Source of the DNA: Planktothricoides raciborskii GIHE-MW2
Lineage (GTDB): Bacteria; Cyanobacteriota; Cyanobacteriia; Cyanobacteriales; Laspinemataceae
Direction: 5' to 3'
Length of the DNA stretch: 64,000 nt
Assembly: GCF_040564635.1 (NCBI RefSeq)
Contig: NZ_CP159837.1
Span: forward strand, 355,801-419,800
The translations under genes and the position numbers were made by a program. The number at the start of each line of letters is the position of its first letter. Position 1 is the first letter of the stretch. Below, in pieces: positions 5,880-53,726 of the stretch. The notes under the pieces are model-generated. The model was not told the origin of the DNA and made no database searches. It saw only the letters and a program-made list of their open reading frames with translations.

Positions 5880-6480
5880 CCTGTAGGGGCAAACCATGAC
5901 CGCAGATATAGCAATTGTCATAGTTATGAAGTACAAAAAAAAACTGTCATTCCCGCGCGGGAATCCAGAAAAACTCTGTACTTCATTCGGACAATAACCG
6001 CTTTATTTGTCGGTTAAAAAATTAATTTTAATCCGGTCATGCTTTGCCCTGATCTGCGGTGTGTGTTCAAATCCAGAATTAACTGCCGGTCAGGGCGGCG
6101 TTGCATTCGGGTAAAGAATTAACTGTTCAAATCCAGAATTAACTGCCAGAATGCTTCGCCCCTACAACCCCCCTACAACTGTAGGGGCAAAGCATGACCG
6201 CAGATATTTCTTGGTTAACCGATTAATTTTAATACGGTCATGCTTTGCCCTTACCAGCCGTGTGAGTTCCAACCCAGAATTAACGGTCAGGGCGAAGGAT
6301 TCGGGTAAAGAATTAACTGTTCAAATCGAGAATTAACTGCTGGTAAGGGCGGCGTTGCATTCGGGTAAAGAATTAACTGTTCAAATCCAGAATTAACTGC
6401 TGGTAAGGGCGGCGTTGCATTCGGGTAAAGAATTAACTGTTCAAATCCAGAATTAACTGCCCGAATGCTTCGCCCCTACA
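5880..6480. repeat. composite tandem repeat: two copies of an about 300-bp unit, the second containing three copies of a 60-bp subunit (6301-6480); unit 1 carries an about 60-bp mini-MITE at 5926-5990
   Basis: CTGTAGGGGCAAAsCATGACCGCAGATAT starts both units (5880, 6178); GGGTAAAGAATTAACTGTTCAAATCCAGAATTAACTGC subunits are repeated; mini-MITE has 10-bp TIRs ATGAAGTACA / TGTACTTCAT around a GTCATTCCCGCGCGGGAATC core. Confidence 0.7.
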
Positions 6481-12907: not shown

Positions 12908-13573
12908 ATGATGAAAAGCTTTCCGCTAGTCAGTTCCATTCTTGCAGCCACTTTAACCATCAGTTGCCCCACCATTGTGTTTGCTCATGTGGGACATGGG
13001 GATGAATTCCAAGCAACTGGGGGAATTAACCGAGTGCAGGTTAACCCGCAAACCGATCAAATGTTGGGCATTGTGGTGACAGCGATCGACGCTACGACTG
13101 CTGATGGTTCTGGGGTGATGATTCCCTTTACTGCCTTAGTTGATGCGGACGGCAAGCAGCTTGTTTTTGTCCAATACAAAAATTTTTATGAGCCGGTGGA
13201 AGTGACCACGGGTGCAACCCAAGGGGATTTGATTTCGGTGACGCAAGGGTTGTCCGTTGGGGAAAAGCTGGTGACTCAGGGCAGCTTATCCCTGTATGCG
13301 GAATCGCGCAAAACTCAAACCGCCGATGCTGCCACAACTCCAGAGCCGATTTCTGCTCCCGCACCCGTTGCTTCGGCACCAGTTTCCCCGGCAACCGACC
13401 AGACCCATGATACTTCTGGCAATATGGTGCAATCCTCTGGGGAACAGTCTGGTGAAACGACTCAGAAATCCGGTGGTTTCCCAATGGGGATTTTGGCCGC
13501 CCTTGGGGGTGGGGCAGCGTTATTGGTGGGAGCGATCGCCGTTGTGGGCAACCGCAAGAAAGGGGGCGTTTAA
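12908..13573 (+). CDS. secreted/membrane-anchored protein resembling only the C-terminal membrane-proximal beta-barrel domain of RND periplasmic adaptors, with an N-terminal HxxHGDEF site and a C-terminal TM anchor
   Basis: Signal peptide; HVGHGDEF; core ...QMLGIVVTAID...MIPFTALVDADGKQLVFVQYKNFYEPVEVTTGATQGDLISVTQGLSVGEKLVTQGSLSL resembles the C-terminal domain of HlyD/CusB-type adaptors; Ala/Pro-rich linker; C-terminal GILAALGGGAALLVGAIAVVGNRKKGG anchor. Confidence 0.55.
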   Translation: MMKSFPLVSSILAATLTISCPTIVFAHVGHGDEFQATGGINRVQVNPQTDQMLGIVVTAIDATTADGSGVMIPFTALVDADGKQLVFVQYKNFYEPVEVTTGATQGDLISVTQGLSVGEKLVTQGSLSLYAESRKTQTADAATTPEPISAPAPVASAPVSPATDQTHDTSGNMVQSSGEQSGETTQKSGGFPMGILAALGGGAALLVGAIAVVGNRKKGGV

Positions 13574-13704
13574 GTAGGTGGGCAGAAATAAATGCACTAC
13601 AGACCCCACGAGAGAGAAGAAAGGCTGTCATTCCCGCGAAGGCGGGAATCCAAAGCCTATTGGCGGAAAACGAAAAGTGCAATTAATTATGTTCACCTAC
13701 TTAA
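13570..13704. mobile_element. MITE-like element (about 135 bp, TIR TAAGTAGGTG) containing the GTCATTCCCGCGAAGGCGGGAATC palindrome; copy 1
   Basis: Near-identical inverted copy at 52531-52659; the palindromic core gives the spurious IPAFAGMT ORF translation. Confidence 0.75.
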
Positions 13705-25153: not shown

Positions 25154-25342
25154 TGTCATTCCCGCCTTCGCGGGAATCAAGAAGCGTTTTAGGTGATTCC
25201 CTCGCATAGCTCATGCGAGGGAATCGTATGGGCGAGAAAGCGAATCGCCCGTACAGGAGAACCGGATTTGGTATGAGATATAGCGCTTCTTATTGGATGA
25301 ATTACAGAGGTTTTCTGGATTCCCGCCTGCGCGGGAATGACA
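25154..25342. mobile_element. composite palindromic MITE-like element (TIRs TGTCATTCCCGCCTTCGCGGGAATC / GATTCCCGCCTGCGCGGGAATGACA enclosing further palindromes)
   Basis: Terminal inverted copies of the GTCATTCCCGC..GCGGGAATGAC core; internal palindrome GATTCCCTCGCATAGCTCATGCGAGGGAATC; gives the spurious ...SRLRGNDK... ORFs. Confidence 0.65.
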
Positions 25343-25485
25343 AATTTTTTTGGTACTTCATAACTCCGAGAAGTGCTATAATGAACCAAAGGAGCGATCG
25401 CTTTATTATATAATGATTATTGTCTCAATGGTTTCAATTGCTTAAAATATTGAATTTAATCTATTACTACCAAGAGAGAAATACT

Positions 25486-49285: not shown

Positions 49286-50599
49286 ATGACTTTGACTGCA
49301 ACCGGATCGCCCAGTTTAGAAGATATTGCCCGCAAAACCCGTGACGCTGCCCGTCAGTTGGGGATTCTGTCCACCGAGGAGAGAAATCAAGGAATTGAAG
49401 CGATCGCCGCTGCCTTGGAAGCTGCCACCCCGGACATTCTCGCTGCTAATGCGATCGACTGTGAAAACGCTGTGGCTGACGGCATTGCCAAACCTTTGTA
49501 TCATCGACTGAAACTCACCGCAAGCAAACTCCAAGCCACTATTGCCGGAGTACGAGATGTGGGGAAATTGCCGGATCCCGTTGGCGCAGTGCAAATTCAC
49601 CGAGAACTAGATGAAGGATTGATTCTCAAGCGAGTGACTTGTCCCCTGGGAGTTTTGGGGATTATTTTTGAAGCGCGACCGGATGCGGCGATTCAAATTT
49701 CGGCTTTAGGGATTAAATCCGGTAATGGGGTAATTCTCAAAGGCGGAAAAGAGGCGATTCATTCTTGTACCGCGATTGTGAAAGCCATTCGCCAAGGTCT
49801 TGGGACAACGAAAATCGCTCCAGAGGTGGTGCAATTGCTGACCACTAGAGAGGAAATTCAAGAGTTACTGAAACTGGATAAATATGTTGACTTGATTATT
49901 CCCAGAGGTTCTAATTCTTTTGTCCAGTTCGTGATGAATCACACGAATATTCCCGTGTTGGGTCATGCGGATGGCGTTTGTCATCTCTATATAGATGCGG
50001 CGGCGGATATGGAAAAAGCGGTTAACATTACGGTGGATTCTAAAACTCAGTATCCCGCTGCTTGTAATGCTACGGAAACTTTGTTAGTTCACCGGAATAT
50101 TGCTGCTAATTTTTTGCCTTTGGTGGCGAAAGGTTTGCAAGTTCATCAAGTAGAATTACGGGGCGATCGCATTACCCGTGATTTTCTCCGGGATTTGGCG
50201 ATCGCGGAAGCTACGGACGAAGATTGGGCTACAGAATATACGGATTTAATCCTATCAATTAAAATTGTGGATTCCCTGGAAGCGGCGATCGCTCATATTA
50301 ATCAATATGGATCGGGACATACTGATGCGATCGTCACCGAAGATAGCGCTGCTGCCAGTAAATTTTTAGCCCAAGTAGATGCGGCTGGAGTGTTTCATAA
50401 TTGTTCCACCCGCTTTGCCGATGGTTTCCGCTATGGTTTTGGTGCGGAAGTGGGCATTAGTACCAGCCAAATGCCGCCCCGTGGCCCCGTGGGACTCGAA
50501 GGATTAATTACTTATAAATATCAAGTCACGGGCAACGGTCACATTGTGGCCACATACGCTGGCGACCATCCTAAATCTTTTACCCACCGGGATTTATAA
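49286..50599 (+). CDS. proA: gamma-glutamyl phosphate reductase
   Basis: ALDH-fold ProA motifs; conserved N-terminus starts at the Met at 49286 ([25 protein letters not shown]), so the 61 upstream codons in the ORF track are probably untranslated. Confidence 0.9.
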
Positions 50600-50603
50600 T
50601 CAG

Positions 50604-50654
50604 AAAAAAAACCGGGTTTTTGTGGCTAATTCCGCATAAAAACCCGGTTTTTCA
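50604..50654. terminator. paired AAAAACCGGGTTTTT / AAAAACCCGGTTTTT palindromes after proA
   Basis: Member of the AAACCCGGTTT palindrome-pair family. Confidence 0.6.
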
Positions 50655-50912
50655 TACCAAGTTTTAAAATTTTTGCTACAATTTCAGTGTTACAGCAATT
50701 TTCTCCACGAGTAAATTGCTGTAGTGGCTGGTGCTTAAATTTTGTTGTTAGTTTGAACCAATAAAAGTGATCGCATTTAGGACTGAACCAGCGATCACTT
50801 AATTTATTGCAACAAATCGCAATAAATATTCAACTATTTAATACAAAAATTTACACACATTGGAAAATATATAGTGTAACATAGATCGCTAACTTCAGTA
50901 AAATAGTGCAAA

Positions 50913-51215
50913 TTGGATGTGTTTGACCCAATCACAATGGAAGTGGAGTCAGAGTCAGGAAACAACGTTCCCGCGTGGTTTCTTGACACAAACTATGACG
51001 GCCTATGTTTCCATGTCAATCAGGCTTTCTTCCCCGGTACAAGTGCTTGGGACGGCATCAAGAAGGCACTAAAGAGAACCTATGATAATGAAGTTTGGGA
51101 GCATTTAGCGGGGACAATTAGCGCACCATTTGAGGCAGGGAAGCATCAGGAAATTGCGGTTAAAGTTATTGATGACCGGGGTAATGAATTGTTATTTACT
51201 AAGCGTTTATCGTAG
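50913..51215 (+). pseudogene. C-terminal remnant of a beta-class N6-adenine/N4-cytosine DNA methyltransferase (Type III Mod / Type II MTase tail)
   Basis: ...WFLDTNYDGLCFHVNQAFF...ALKRTYDNEVWEHLAGTISAPFEAGKHQEIAVKVIDDRGNELL matches, from memory, the conserved C-terminal tail (W.iDtdYDg..F...Ff......L...l.......w..l....S.PFe.G....IAVKVID..GnE) of these MTases; no catalytic N-terminal region exists upstream (300 bp of AT-rich non-coding DNA). Confidence 0.45.
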
Positions 51216-51236
51216 TTATTGGAGCTACTGTAGAAA

Positions 51237-52406
51237 ATGAATTACCGAGAAAATGAAATTCAAGAACCTTTTTTTGATATCGATATTTCTGAAGGAATCG
51301 ATTACTCCTCAATAGATTGTAATAATCGCCACTTTCAACAAGCCCAGCGATTCCATCAAAAACTGAGATCAGTAAATCGGTTTATTCAGTATTGTTTTAT
51401 GTATGACCCGTTAGTCAATTTAGAAACAGGAAATTCAATATCAATTTATCTAAATCCTAGGCTACTTATTGTACACAATATTTTGGAAGAAAGCAATAAA
51501 ACGTACAGTCAAATTTTTATTTTAAATAATCTCATCAAAATACCTAGTCTTAAAAAGCTAGAACAACAATATTTAGAAACCACAAAACGTGATAGCGAGG
51601 ACTATTTGCAAAAAGCTCAAATGCAAATTAACTGTTATAGCTGTATTGCACCATTCCGAATTATAAATCCAGAACAAATAACTGAAGAATACTTAAATAA
51701 ATACTCGGGTAAAAACAATCAGTCAAAGGTCACGGATAAAAAAATTGATTTGATTAATAAAAAAAGAAACGCTAAAAAATTTGAAACTAGCGAAGTATTG
51801 TATTACAAGCAATATATTTGTTGTGAACATGAAGGTGAAAAAGGATGGATTATTCTTTATAGAAGCCCACTTTTAAGTATCGATGATTTTAAATCAGAAA
51901 TAATAGGTATAGGTGAAACTCTCTTAGAGGCAGATTTAGACTTTCAAAGGAAAAAAGCCGGGTTATTTTTAGAAACTATGGAGTTAAAGCAAAATGTTTT
52001 AAATTCAAACACACCAGTTAACATAAATCAGATGAGAACTTTTTGCCAACAATACGACAAGAATATAAAATATGATAGTTTTACTCACGAATACACTGGT
52101 TGTTTCAAAAGAAAAACATTTGGGTTTAAGCTAACTTGTCGGTCTGAATTATATAAATTTACAGTTTCCGTTTCGTCTCATTCTACTAAATGGACTGTGG
52201 AAACCCACATAAATGCAAGATACAAAATACCAATAGAAGCAACAGGTAAATCCTTGGAAGAAGCTTTTAACAAAGCTAAAGAAAAGCATGACCGTATTTT
52301 ATCAAATCCGGAACTTATTCAGAAGGAAATTGCATTTATAGAGCAAGACTACCAACCAAACTATGATGAATATATAAACCTAGACCTAAGTTCCGAGTTT
52401 GAATGA
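51237..52406 (+). CDS. hypothetical protein, AT-rich (Lys/Asn/Ile-rich), no recognisable family; candidate restriction-endonuclease-like partner of the MTase remnant
   Basis: 389-aa intact ORF starting 22 bp after the MTase remnant; GC content clearly below the window average. Confidence 0.55.
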   Translation: MNYRENEIQEPFFDIDISEGIDYSSIDCNNRHFQQAQRFHQKLRSVNRFIQYCFMYDPLVNLETGNSISIYLNPRLLIVHNILEESNKTYSQIFILNNLIKIPSLKKLEQQYLETTKRDSEDYLQKAQMQINCYSCIAPFRIINPEQITEEYLNKYSGKNNQSKVTDKKIDLINKKRNAKKFETSEVLYYKQYICCEHEGEKGWIILYRSPLLSIDDFKSEIIGIGETLLEADLDFQRKKAGLFLETMELKQNVLNSNTPVNINQMRTFCQQYDKNIKYDSFTHEYTGCFKRKTFGFKLTCRSELYKFTVSVSSHSTKWTVETHINARYKIPIEATGKSLEEAFNKAKEKHDRILSNPELIQKEIAFIEQDYQPNYDEYINLDLSSEFE

Positions 52407-52530
52407 TGTATTTCACCCAGTTAAAGACATCAAAAAATTAGATTTTTTAAAAATGACCTACGAAGTCAACGAACCCATCCTCAATTCCCCTTTTGATGAA
52501 CCATCCCGGTATTGGTTTATTCGAGAGGGC

Positions 52531-52659
52531 TAAGTAGGTGAAGATAATTAATTGCACTTTTCGTTCTCCGCCGATAGGCTTTGGATTCCCGCCTTCGCGG
52601 GAATGACAGTTTTTCTTCTGATATGGTCTGTGGTGCATTTATTTCTGCCCACCTACTTA
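52531..52659. mobile_element. MITE-like element, copy 2 (inverted relative to copy 1 at 13570-13704)
   Basis: TAAGTAGGTGAAGATAATTAATTGCACTTTTCGTT...GATTCCCGCCTTCGCGGGAATGACAG...CACCTACTTA is the reverse complement of copy 1 at about 90% identity. Confidence 0.75.
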
Positions 52660-52761
52660 TCTTATTCTTTCTATGAGTTTGCCCCGACCGTCAGCCTTGG
52701 CAAGTCACGATCTAATAAATCAGTTAAAATAAACTAACTGCGATCGACTATTGTATAACTA

Positions 52762-53481
52762 ATGATTCAAGCCCCTTTTTCTGCTCAACTACTTTACCCT
52801 GATTCTGACGGGAAACCGATGGCCGATAATACAGAACAATATGAATGGATTGTGCGTTTGGTGACAAATCTGAAGCATTTATTAAAAGATGAAGTAGCGT
52901 TTGTAGCCGGAGATTTGCTGTGGTATCCCGTGGAAGTAGAGGAACCACCGGCACCCCGCCAAGCGCCAGATGCAATGGTGGCTTTGGGTCGTCCTGCGGG
53001 ATATCGCGGCAGCTATAAGCAATGGGAAGAAGACAACATTGCCCCGCAAGTAGTATTTGAGATTCTCTCACCAAGCAACACCCGTCGGGAAATGGCGGAA
53101 AAGCAAAAATTTTATGAAGACTACGGGGTTTTAGAGAGTTATTACTATGACCTCGAACGCAAAGATTTCTGGGGATTTGTGCGATCGCAGCCTGATGATA
53201 TTTGCACCTTGATTACCGCGTTGTATTTGCCTTGGACATCGCCGTTATTGCAGATTAGATTTGAACTAATGGAGGATGGGTTAGCGGTGTTTCATCCCAA
53301 TGGCGAACCTTTTGCTGAACCGGAAACCATGTTTCTGGAAAGAGATGCCGCCCGACTCGCAGAACAAGAGGCACAAGCTGAACGCGATCGGGCACTGTTG
53401 CGGGAAGAACAAACTCAAGCCAAACTCAATCAAGCCTTAGCAAAACTTCAGGAGTTGGGCATCGATCCCGATACCCTCTAG
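52762..53481 (+). CDS. Uma2-family (DUF820) putative restriction-endonuclease-like protein
   Basis: YPDSDGKPMADNTEQYEWIVRL... and PQVVFEILSPSNTRRE...FYEDYGVLESYYYDLE hallmark motifs. Confidence 0.85.
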   Translation: MIQAPFSAQLLYPDSDGKPMADNTEQYEWIVRLVTNLKHLLKDEVAFVAGDLLWYPVEVEEPPAPRQAPDAMVALGRPAGYRGSYKQWEEDNIAPQVVFEILSPSNTRREMAEKQKFYEDYGVLESYYYDLERKDFWGFVRSQPDDICTLITALYLPWTSPLLQIRFELMEDGLAVFHPNGEPFAEPETMFLERDAARLAEQEAQAERDRALLREEQTQAKLNQALAKLQELGIDPDTL

Positions 53482-53726
53482 GGAGAGGCATAATAGACAA
53501 GAGCGCAAAATAAATATTTCGATCCCCCCAACCCCCCTAAAAAAGAGGGGCTTTTTATAATGAAAGCTTTCTTGTCTAATGAGAAAAGAAACCGGGTTTC
53601 TTGGGTTGAGGATCGAGAATGACCAGTTGTAACCCATGAGAAACCCGGTTTCTGGGCTGATAAATTATAAATATTTTCCTGATATACCATCTCGAAATAC
53701 AATAAAATCAGATTCGGCCTCAACCC

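What the first reader, a model, noticed from the sequence alone, without database searches (positions are those of the whole stretch)
50913..52406. Degraded restriction-modification-like islet: C-terminal DNA methyltransferase remnant followed by an intact AT-rich 389-aa orphan ORF
What the sequence shows directly:
- The 100-aa ORF at 50913 reproduces only the conserved C-terminal tail of beta-class N6A/N4C MTases (...LAGTISAPFEAGKHQEIAVKVIDDRGNELL).
- It has no catalytic region upstream, only 300 bp of AT-rich non-coding DNA and the proA terminator.
- 22 bp downstream is a complete 389-aa ORF that is strongly AT-rich and Lys/Asn-rich, with no recognisable family.
- A MITE copy lies immediately after it (52531-52659), followed by a Uma2 nuclease gene.

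Inference: this looks like a horizontally acquired RM (or other defence) cassette whose methyltransferase has been truncated while the partner gene stayed intact. The partner could be a cognate restriction endonuclease that is tolerated because it is inactive or because another MTase protects the host. It could also be a novel defence or toxin gene that piggy-backed on the RM islet.
Basis: partly seen in the sequence, partly recalled or inferred. Interest (0 to 1): 0.6.

Follow-up and report, generated by a model that had tools for sequence, protein, structure and literature searches.

The report
Restriction-system relic keeping an orphan passenger gene
This is the wreck of a three-gene restriction-modification operon in the cyanobacterium Planktothricoides raciborskii: the methylase and the restriction enzyme are reduced to short stubs, while an uncharacterised passenger gene that sat between them is intact, still under selection, and has survived the same way at several other loci in related cyanobacteria.

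Summary
50913-51215 is the last 100 codons of a Type III-like DNA methyltransferase (Mod). 51237-52406 is an intact, AT-rich 389-aa ORF with no known family, followed by a MITE and a Uma2 gene.

52453-52530 is the first 26 codons of the restriction subunit (Res, BPTD_3080 family), cut at the TA where the MITE sits. So the 389-aa ORF ("X") is not the cognate endonuclease.

In intact relatives the order is mod-X-res. That gap elsewhere holds AbiL, toxin-antitoxin pairs, an unrelated unknown gene, or nothing.

- X belongs to a tiny cyanobacterial family: 14 proteins among 5.8 billion, 19 among 1.84 billion cluster representatives.
- X is intact at seven or more independent loci where Mod and Res are stubs. 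dN/dS is 0.25-0.35.
- At two decayed loci the X allele was replaced by recombination near the conserved stubs.

Most likely X is an autonomous accessory, probably defence-related, that outlives its host RM system. Its function was not determined.

The parts
50607..50652 (+). Hairpin after proA (18-nt arms, 94% complementary). It is the probable proA terminator and marks the left edge of the islet.
   Evidence: inverted repeat I4; proA is 49286-50599
50653..50912 (.). AT-rich spacer of unknown origin. It carries no Mod homology and no repeat. It holds a weak sigma-70-like site (50876-50904) just before the Mod tail.
   Evidence: The promoter match is not above the shuffle expectation (10 found against 8.0 expected).
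50913..51215 (+). Remnant of the mod gene: codons 793-892 of a roughly 890-aa Type III-like N6/N4 DNA methyltransferase. There is no catalytic region.
   Evidence: dN/dS against intact Mod tails is 0.07-0.14, the same as intact against intact.
51216..51236 (+). 21-nt mod-X intergenic spacer with a GGAG. It is conserved in the two closest relatives (L021, L022).
51237..52406 (+). Gene X: an intact 389-aa orphan accessory gene (WP_354635537.1). GC is 30.7%. The family is uncharacterised and no fold match was found.
52402..52419 (+). Out-of-frame remnant (NDVFHP, +1 frame) of the family's conserved C-terminal motif SEFGxDxFPD. A frameshift in the Gly codon truncates X at ...SSEFE in this clade.
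   Evidence: the same truncation occurs in L021 and L022
52453..52530 (+). Remnant of the res gene: codons 1-26 of a BPTD_3080-family restriction endonuclease. It ends at the TA of codon 27.
52531..52659 (.). MITE with 27-nt terminal inverted repeats and TA on both sides. Its internal GC-rich hairpin plus T-run (52585-52604) is the only terminator-like site after X.

Best explanation
The islet is the relic of a three-gene operon, mod-X-res, of the widespread BPTD_3080 Type III-like restriction-modification family. It once sat downstream of proA in Planktothricoides raciborskii.

Deletions removed mod codons 1-792. They also removed res beyond codon 26. The res breakpoint lies at the TA that is now occupied by a TA-flanked MITE. 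The embedded gene X stayed intact.

X is not part of the restriction enzyme. It is a passenger in the gap between mod and res. That gap is empty in some relatives, with mod and res overlapping. In others it holds AbiL, toxin-antitoxin pairs or another unknown gene.

Shown here:
- X is a real gene, under purifying selection and fixed in the species.
- X repeatedly outlives the RM genes.
- Its alleles are replaced by homologous recombination whose crossovers fall in or next to the conserved Mod-tail and Res-head stubs.

Inferred, not shown:
- X acts on its own as a defence-type accessory, either abortive-infection-like or a sensor/adaptor.
- It is probably non-enzymatic. It may work through its folded core together with conserved acidic-aromatic peptides at its N terminus (QEPxF) and C terminus (SEFGxDxFPD).
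- It is transcribed from signals in or just upstream of the retained Mod tail and terminated in the MITE hairpin.
For: RM relic:
- The Mod tail is confirmed.
- The Res head is 100% identical over 26 residues to an intact Res and matches the start of NF046055.
- The intact Arthrospira Res scores 1119.9 bits against an 800-bit cut-off for NF046055.

Operon order:
- Arthrospira has Mod-X-AbiLi-AbiLii-Res.
- Metagenome contigs have Mod-X-Res, with gaps of about 20-30 nt.
- Other contigs have X2-X1-Res and Mod-X-Res.

Cargo slot:
- Mod-AbiLi-Res without X.
- Mod-PIN/DUF2281-Res.
- Res-UPF0175/DUF3368-Mod in PCC 7002 pAQ5.
- An unrelated 354-aa ORF in the slot on a Planktothrix agardhii plasmid.
- An empty slot with a 4-nt mod/res overlap in a Mycobacterium avium plasmid.

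X outlives the RM genes:
- X is an intact ORF flanked by Mod stubs of 100 codons or fewer and Res stubs of 139 codons or fewer at seven or more independent loci.
- One relic keeps Mod codons 1-19 fused to 853-892, which is an independent internal deletion.

Selection:
- dN/dS is 0.245 (window against L021) and 0.35 (L001 against L011), both relic against relic.
- The cassette is present in every contig that carries the identical ProA, and in three named strains.

Not a nuclease:
- The model has pLDDT 81.3 and pTM 0.71.
- There is no hit in BFVD, the PDB by sequence or Pfam for any of 26 members.
- The invariant columns are G, A, P and W only.

Allele exchange:
- At an orthologous Laspinema locus the flanking genes have dS 0.23-0.30 and X has dS 1.07.
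- Nucleotide identity there is about 0.9 in the stubs and 0.5-0.7 inside X.
- In Planktothrix contigs the same flanks carry X1 in one and X2 in the other. The Res stub is mosaic: 7/27 against 2/54 differences, Fisher p = 0.005.

Defence context:
- AbiL and toxin-antitoxin modules occupy the same slot.
- The PCC 7002 homologue lies beside an Abi_2 gene, upstream of the BPTD_3080 system; a reverse-transcriptase/ATPase cluster lies about 3-7 kb further upstream on the same plasmid.
Against: No function was demonstrated. There is no domain, no fold match, no catalytic motif and no expression data.

The defence role rests on position and neighbours only.

The promoter and terminator assignments are consensus matches at chance level.

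In this clade the family's most conserved C-terminal motif has been lost by a frameshift. The Planktothricoides copy may therefore be functionally altered.

One homologue inside an apparently intact RM context is itself frameshifted (L019).

Most comparison loci are short metagenomic contigs, so 'intact' RM context is sometimes inferred from partial genes.

Whether the Planktothricoides genome has an intact system of this clade elsewhere was tested only indirectly.
Confidence: 0.6

Rival explanations
1. X is the cognate restriction endonuclease, or another nuclease toxin, of the truncated methyltransferase. It is tolerated because it is inactive or because another methylase protects the host.
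For: X lies immediately next to an MTase remnant on the same strand, 21 nt away. Its composition looks foreign.
Against: The cognate endonuclease is identified: a BPTD_3080-family Res whose first 26 codons lie at 52453-52530, and which is full length downstream of X in intact relatives.

The confident X model has no nuclease fold. No Asp, Glu, His, Lys or Arg is invariant. No nuclease family is hit in Pfam, NCBIfam or PADLOC.
Confidence: 0.03
2. X is a dedicated subunit, specificity factor or regulator of the Mod-Res enzyme, for example one that delays Res activity during establishment. On this view the solitary copies are simply the last part of the operon to decay.
For: X is tightly packed in the operon between mod and res. 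It diverges fast, as specificity determinants do: 45% identity where the flanking Mod tails are 83% identical. It has conserved terminal peptide motifs that could dock on a partner.
Against: Close relatives of the same RM family work without X.

X stays intact with dN/dS 0.25-0.35 at seven or more loci where Mod and Res are gone. It is fixed in the species.

Conversely, X is frameshifted in one RM-intact context.
Confidence: 0.1
3. The Mod-tail/X/Res-head units are silent donor cassettes. The conserved stubs serve as homology arms. Through them, alternative X alleles are moved into an expressed mod-X-res locus or between relic loci. This would be a variation system comparable to pilS/pilE or hsdS shuffling.
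For: Several divergent cassettes occur per genome: two in P. raciborskii and three contig-level cassettes in one Planktothrix MAG.

The stubs are much better conserved than X.

There are two documented allele replacements with crossovers in or next to the stubs.
Against: The left stub boundaries differ from locus to locus, and no recombinase or repeat flanks the cassettes.

None of the 120 best Res homologues comes from the 7.2-Mb P. raciborskii chromosome, so no expression locus of this clade was found there (this is indirect).

Relic copies are themselves under purifying selection. That is simpler to explain if they are expressed.
Confidence: 0.15
4. X is an inhibitor of, or immunity factor against, the Res enzyme. 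It is kept after RM loss because it protects the host from re-invasion or post-segregational killing by related RM systems.
For: X is retained after RM loss and is mildly acidic (pI 4.6-6.3 in most members). It appears non-enzymatic. It is linked to one RM family, including in PCC 7002 where it lies outside the slot.
Against: X has no similarity to known anti-restriction proteins and none in phages. An inhibitor encoded inside the operon it inhibits needs extra assumptions. There is no direct evidence.
Confidence: 0.08
5. X is itself a selfish mobile gene, for example a free-standing homing-type gene that targets the mod-res junction and drags flanking sequence with it.
For: X has a patchy distribution within a very large RM family. 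Its GC is lower than that of its neighbours everywhere. It always carries adjacent Mod-tail and Res-head sequence.
Against: X has no nuclease, transposase or recombinase signature and no conserved catalytic residues. There are no target-site duplications or terminal repeats around the cassette. The stub lengths vary.
Confidence: 0.04

Closest known systems
PrrC (and RloC) 'restriction-linked' genes embedded in Type I RM loci, such as prrC inside EcoprrI
   Same: An accessory gene is encoded inside an RM operon and is not needed for restriction or modification. For PrrC this acts as a second line of defence (review PMC12707154). X likewise sits between the RM genes, and that slot also hosts AbiL and toxin-antitoxin modules.
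   Different: X has no ABC-ATPase or anticodon-nuclease domain and no sequence or fold similarity to these proteins. The host system is Type III-like, not Type I. X persists alone after RM loss. Its function is unknown.
AbiL (AbiLi/AbiLii; PADLOC PDC-M38) abortive-infection pair
   Same: It occupies the same mod-res gap of the same RM family, next to X in Arthrospira and alone in another cyanobacterial contig.
   Different: It is an unrelated pair of proteins (AAA_15/21 ATPase plus DUF3226). X matches no PADLOC model.
BPTD_3080-family Type III-like restriction-modification systems (NCBIfam NF046055 Res plus PF01555 Mod)
   Same: The window's stubs are clear fragments of this family. The Mod tail is 83% identical and the Res head 92-100% identical to intact cyanobacterial members.
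   Different: Only 100 of about 890 Mod codons and 26 of about 1040 Res codons remain, so there is no functional RM system here.
Silent-cassette and allele-shuffling systems (Neisseria pilS/pilE; hsdS or mod DNA-recognition-domain exchange, e.g. PMC3311624)
   Same: A variable central segment lies between conserved flanks, several copies occur per genome, and replacement by homologous recombination is documented.
   Different: No expression locus, recombinase or inverted repeats were found. The variable unit is a whole accessory gene, not a domain of the RM enzyme. The copies appear to be selected in place.
TA-flanked MITEs with terminal inverted repeats
   Same: A 129-bp element with 27-nt terminal inverted repeats, several copies, and TA on both sides of each of three copies.
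   Different: No parent transposase was identified here. Its role in truncating res is inferred from position only.

Membership tests
Functional Type III-like RM system (BPTD_3080 family) | Mod with an N6/N4 methyltransferase catalytic domain (PF01555) | tested here: not met
   Only residues 793-892 remain. There is no Pfam MTase hit and no upstream Mod homology.
Functional Type III-like RM system (BPTD_3080 family) | Full-length Res (about 1040 aa, NF046055 at or above 800 bits) | tested here: not met
   Only codons 1-26 are present. The intact relative scores 1119.9 bits.
Relic of a BPTD_3080-family RM operon | Significant, collinear homology to the Mod C-terminus and the Res N-terminus on one strand | tested here: met
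   The order and spacing match those of intact operons.
Restriction endonuclease or nuclease toxin (PD-(D/E)xK, HNH, PLD, etc.), tested for X | Nuclease fold | tested here: not met
Restriction endonuclease or nuclease toxin, tested for X | Invariant catalytic acidic, His or Lys residues | tested here: not met
   The 26-sequence alignment has invariant G226, A232, P260 and W319 only.
PrrC/RloC-type RM-embedded anticodon nucleases | Gene located inside an RM operon | tested here: met
   Homologues lie between mod and res in L003, L008/L009, L018 and L019.
PrrC/RloC-type RM-embedded anticodon nucleases | N-terminal ABC-type ATPase plus C-terminal anticodon nuclease domain | tested here: not met
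   There is no Pfam, NCBIfam or PADLOC hit.
PrrC/RloC-type RM-embedded anticodon nucleases | Kept latent by the RM enzyme and activated when a phage inhibits it | not testable with these tools
   This needs genetics or biochemistry. The persistence of X without any RM partner argues against obligate silencing by the RM enzyme.
Known anti-phage defence systems (PADLOC-DB v2.0.0) | Match to any defence protein model | tested here: not met
   There is no hit for X, the X2 paralogue or the PCC 7002 homologue.
Silent-cassette variation system | Multiple divergent cassettes with conserved flanks, plus evidence of exchange | tested here: met
   Searches show the copies. Searches show the exchange.
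Silent-cassette variation system | An intact expression locus in the same genome | tested here: inconclusive
   None of the 120 best Res relatives comes from the 7.2-Mb P. raciborskii contig. The genome itself could not be scanned.
Silent-cassette variation system | A dedicated recombinase or repeats at the cassette borders | tested here: not met
   No repeats flank the cassette and the left borders vary.
TA-flanked MITE | Terminal inverted repeats, several copies, TA on both sides, no coding capacity | tested here: met

The most novel reading that the evidence does not exclude
The short Mod-tail and Res-head stubs are not just debris. They would work as portable homology arms. Through them a hypervariable, structurally novel anti-phage sensor/effector family (X1/X2) would be swapped between relic loci and live mod-res operons in filamentous cyanobacteria. 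On this reading the gap inside a restriction operon is a recombination-driven cassette exchange site for defence genes, and the relics are a standing reservoir of alleles.
Probability: 0.2. Interest if true: 0.75.

Novelty: new variant of a known kind. Interest (0 to 1): 0.5.

Why it matters
Decayed RM systems are ordinary, especially in bloom-forming cyanobacteria, which carry unusually many RM systems (PMC8262939, abstract seen). Three things here are not ordinary.

- A protein family with no detectable relatives or fold lives in the mod-res gap of a very widespread RM family.
- That family repeatedly survives the loss of both RM genes.
- Its alleles are replaced through the conserved stubs.

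If X proves to be a defence gene, it adds a new family. It would also show that Type III-like operons, like Type I loci with PrrC, serve as carriers and recombination scaffolds for other immunity genes. A homologue on plasmid pAQ5 of the genetically tractable Picosynechococcus sp. PCC 7002 makes this directly testable.

Tried and rejected
- **Domain searches on X.** Pfam, NCBIfam, PADLOC and PHROGs gave nothing. Scanning all 26 family members against Pfam also gave nothing consistent.
- **Profile against PDB sequences.** The best E-value was 0.077, to a de novo designed protein.
- **Other fold libraries.** Foldseek against viral structures gave no hit at E of 0.001 or below. The afdb50 library was unavailable.
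- **Phage or viral origin.** There were no viral contigs and no phage records.
- **Rfam scan of 50000-53600.** Nothing was found.
- **Search for an empty proA-Uma2 site.** Every contig with the identical ProA carries the cassette.
- **Cassette as a transposable unit.** There are no flanking direct or inverted repeats.
- **Are Mod-tail mini-ORFs a general phenomenon?** The search returned only short proteins, probably a candidate-selection bias. The two long-contig cases examined were ordinary frameshift or internal-deletion decay.
- **Promoter and terminator scan.** The counts were at chance level.
- **Literature.** There are no papers on BPTD_3080 or on the PCC 7002 homologue's accession.
- **Profile comparison of the 354-aa slot gene of the P. 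agardhii plasmid with X.** They are unrelated.
Full report
**1. What is in the window**

- A 100-codon ORF lies at 50913-51215.
- After a 21-nt gap comes a 389-codon ORF at 51237-52406.
- A 129-bp element follows at 52531-52659, then a Uma2-family gene at 52762-53481 (PF05685, E 1.3e-12).
- GC falls to 28-33% across the 389-aa ORF, against about 44% around it.
- Upstream are proA (49286-50599), a strong hairpin at 50607-50652 and about 260 bp of AT-rich DNA with no homology to anything fetched.
- Exact-sequence look-up identifies the window as the chromosome of Planktothricoides raciborskii GIHE-MW2. The 389-aa protein is WP_354635537.1.

**2. The methyltransferase remnant is real, and there is also a restriction-subunit remnant**

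The 100-aa ORF matches only the extreme C-terminus of long Type III methyltransferases.
- It hits PADLOC MTase_III at positions 884-978 of 983 (E 1e-14) and phrog_67 at positions 643-737 of 743.
- It is 83% identical to residues 793-892 of an intact 892-aa Mod from Arthrospira.

- It is 100% identical to residues 1-26 of an intact 1036-aa Res and 92% identical to another.
- It matches the first 21 positions of NCBIfam NF046055, the BPTD_3080 family restriction endonuclease (E 2e-4).
- The intact Arthrospira protein scores 1119.9 bits against that model's 800-bit cut-off.

The Res stub ends at the TA of codon 27, exactly where the next element begins. That element is a MITE.
- It has 27-nt terminal inverted repeats.
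- There is a second copy at 13571-13703 and a third in another locus of the same species.
- TA lies on both sides of all three copies.

Res sequence does not resume after the MITE. A deletion therefore accompanied or followed the insertion. Recombination between two MITE copies is a plausible cause but was not shown.

**3. The 389-aa gene ("X") is a passenger between mod and res, not the endonuclease**

X belongs to a very small family.
- It has 14 proteins among 5.8 billion, all from Oscillatoriales.
- It has 19 hits among 1.84 billion cluster representatives, including a distant clade ("X2", about 350 aa, about 24% identity).
- One more homologue lies on plasmid pAQ5 of Picosynechococcus sp. 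PCC 7002.

Where the context is intact, X lies between the RM genes.
- Arthrospira has Mod(892)-X-AbiLi-AbiLii-Res(1044).
- One set of metagenome contigs has Mod-X-Res, with gaps of about 20-30 nt.
- Others have X2-X1-Res and Mod-X-Res.

The same gap varies in its content.
- It holds AbiLi alone in a contig whose Res is 80% identical.
- It holds a PIN/DUF2281 toxin-antitoxin pair in a locus with no detectable X homologue.
- It holds a UPF0175/DUF3368 pair in PCC 7002.
- It holds an unrelated 354-aa unknown gene on a Planktothrix agardhii plasmid.
- It holds nothing in a Mycobacterium avium plasmid, where mod and res overlap by 4 nt.

The Res family itself is huge and crosses phyla: at least 7945 hits at E < 1e-50. 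X is therefore rare cargo in a common vehicle. X is AT-rich (29-34% GC) wherever it occurs, including inside intact operons whose Mod and Res are 40-47% GC.

**4. X repeatedly outlives the RM system**

I ran tblastn with intact Mod and Res against all fetched loci and inspected the junctions. X is an intact ORF flanked by a short Mod-tail stub upstream, and usually a short Res-head stub downstream, at seven or more independent loci.

| Locus | Mod codons kept | Res codons kept |
|---|---|---|
| Window (P. raciborskii, proA locus) | 793-892 | 1-26 |
| L002 (same species, second locus; X 49% identical) | 842-891 | 1-82 |
| L001/L011/L013 (one syntenic Laspinema/Oscillatoria locus) | 19 to about 55 | degenerate head |
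| L004, cassette 1 (Planktothrix MAG) | 842-881 | 1-139 |
| L004, cassette 2 (carries X2) | 823-891 | 5-27 |
| L021 | 1-19 fused to 853-892 | 1-27 |
| L012/L017 (X2-X1) | faint tail | none |
| L022 | at least 23 | 1-82 |

L012/L017 are the exception to the downstream stub: there res is deleted exactly from its start codon. The differing left borders, and the internal deletion in L021, show that these are independent decay events and not one transposed unit. No repeats flank the cassette.

X is under purifying selection between relic copies.
- dN/dS is 0.245 for the window against L021, at dS 0.27.
- dN/dS is 0.35 for L001 against L011.
- The cassette is present in every contig that carries the identical ProA and in three named strains.

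The window's Mod tail shows dN/dS 0.07 against an intact Mod, the same as intact against intact. Most of its divergence therefore predates the truncation. Other relics have frameshifted or shorter tails, so the tail is unlikely to be a functional protein in general.

**5. Allele replacement through the stubs**

Two cases were found.

Case a, Laspinema sp. D1 against D2d at an orthologous locus:
- Six flanking genes have dS 0.23-0.30 and dN 0.013-0.028.
- X has dS 1.07 and dN 0.37.
- A sliding window gives about 0.9 identity in the Mod stub and X leader, 0.5-0.7 inside X, 0.82-0.88 in the X 3' end and Res stub, and 0.94-0.97 beyond.
- L011 shares its Mod stub with L013 but its X allele with L001.

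Case b, two contigs of one Planktothrix MAG:
- They share the left flank, Mod tail, Res stub and right flank at 81-86% nucleotide identity. One carries X1 and the other X2.
- The Res stub of L021 is mosaic. Nucleotides 1-27 match the window type (1/27 differences). Nucleotides 28-81 and the breakpoint match the X2 cassette (2/54 differences, against 7/27 in the first part). Fisher p = 0.005.

An alternative for case b is differential loss from an ancestral X2-X1 tandem. This is not excluded. The mosaic stub favours recombination.

**6. What X might do**

A 26-sequence alignment gave a confident model (pLDDT 81.3, pTM 0.71).
- There are no viral structural relatives.
- Across both clades the invariant residues are G226, A232, P260 and W319. 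The near-invariant ones include C136 and C270. C53 and C301 are also at 90% or more in the 23-sequence alignment. There is no catalytic-looking constellation.
- The most conserved linear element is the C-terminal peptide [LI][LI]SE[FY]GxDxFPD(RD). The X1 clade also has an N-terminal NKIQEPxF.

In the window's clade a frameshift in the Gly codon truncates the protein at ...SSEFE and leaves NDVFHP in the +1 frame. Selection on the rest of the protein has continued since.

I infer a non-enzymatic protein, acting as a sensor, adaptor or inhibitor. The defence assignment rests on its slot-mates (AbiL, toxin-antitoxin pairs) and on the PCC 7002 neighbourhood, where the homologue lies beside an Abi_2 gene and upstream of the BPTD_3080 RM system, with a reverse-transcriptase/ATPase cluster about 3-7 kb further upstream on the same plasmid. 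This is guilt by association and was not shown.

**7. Comparison with known systems**

The closest concept is the restriction-linked accessory gene, of which PrrC inside the Type IC EcoprrI locus is the textbook case (PMC12707154). X shares the position but none of the domains. It differs in surviving without the RM enzyme. The exchange through conserved flanks resembles silent-cassette or domain-shuffling systems. However, no expression locus, recombinase or fixed borders were found. None of the 120 best Res relatives comes from the 7.2-Mb P. raciborskii chromosome (indirect). No paper mentions the family.

**8. Verdict**

- The RM-relic reading is right.
- The 'cognate endonuclease' reading is wrong.
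- The 'piggy-backed novel gene' reading is supported and extended.

The RM relic is ordinary. The passenger family, its repeated survival and its allele exchange are a new variant of a known theme, and its function is still unknown.

Noticed in passing
window 52531-52659; 13571-13703 (reverse strand); partial cores at 25316-25351, 5936-5967 and 25158-25177: A 129-bp MITE family with 27-nt terminal inverted repeats, TA on both sides, and a GC-rich internal hairpin followed by a T-run. A 91.5%-identical copy lies just downstream of the second X cassette of the same species (L002 11552-11681).
   Followed up: partly
L003 6779-6845 (Arthrospira sp. SH-MAG29): A 21-nt duplicate of the res start (ATGACCGACGAAGTAAACGAA) sits between the X stop codon and the AbiLi start codon. 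The AbiL pair therefore entered the slot by a join inside the first codons of res.
   Followed up: no
L034 5940-7004 (Planktothrix agardhii No.66 plasmid p3, WP_227398480.1): A different 354-aa protein of unknown function occupies the same mod-res slot and overlaps the res start by 4 nt. It is unrelated to X (hhalign probability 0.2%) and has no Pfam or PADLOC hit.
   Followed up: partly
L029 (Picosynechococcus sp. PCC 7002 plasmid pAQ5, 18379-35284): A distant X homologue (WP_012308539.1) lies beside an Abi_2 gene and upstream of a Res-toxin/antitoxin-Mod system of the same RM family. A reverse transcriptase, an ATP-binding protein, a SAM methyltransferase and AlkB lie upstream of it on the plasmid. 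This host is genetically tractable.
   Followed up: partly
L035 368-3001 and L003 210-2552: A large protein sits immediately upstream of mod in two distant members of the RM family. It is 877 aa in M. avium (PLD-like domain, weak ZacB-like match) and 780 aa in Arthrospira (no hits). The family may be a three-component system.
   Followed up: no
L004 4721-6451: A 576-aa pentapeptide-repeat ORF lies between two X cassettes. Its 3' end runs into a Mod-tail remnant.
   Followed up: no
L001 against L013, X region: At an orthologous Laspinema locus, X has four times the synonymous divergence of its neighbours (dS 1.07 against 0.23-0.30). The identity profile drops only inside X and recovers in the stubs.
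   Followed up: yes
window 52399-52533: A 44-codon frame joins the out-of-frame remnant of X's C-terminal motif (NDVFHP) to the 26-codon Res head without a stop codon. This is probably coincidental read-through of the intergenic spacer.
   Followed up: partly
(database search, not a locus): Searching with the 100-aa Mod tail listed only proteins of 94-173 aa and omitted known full-length Mods with 83% identity. The candidate selection seems to favour short sequences, so the list cannot be used to count orphan tails.
   Followed up: partly
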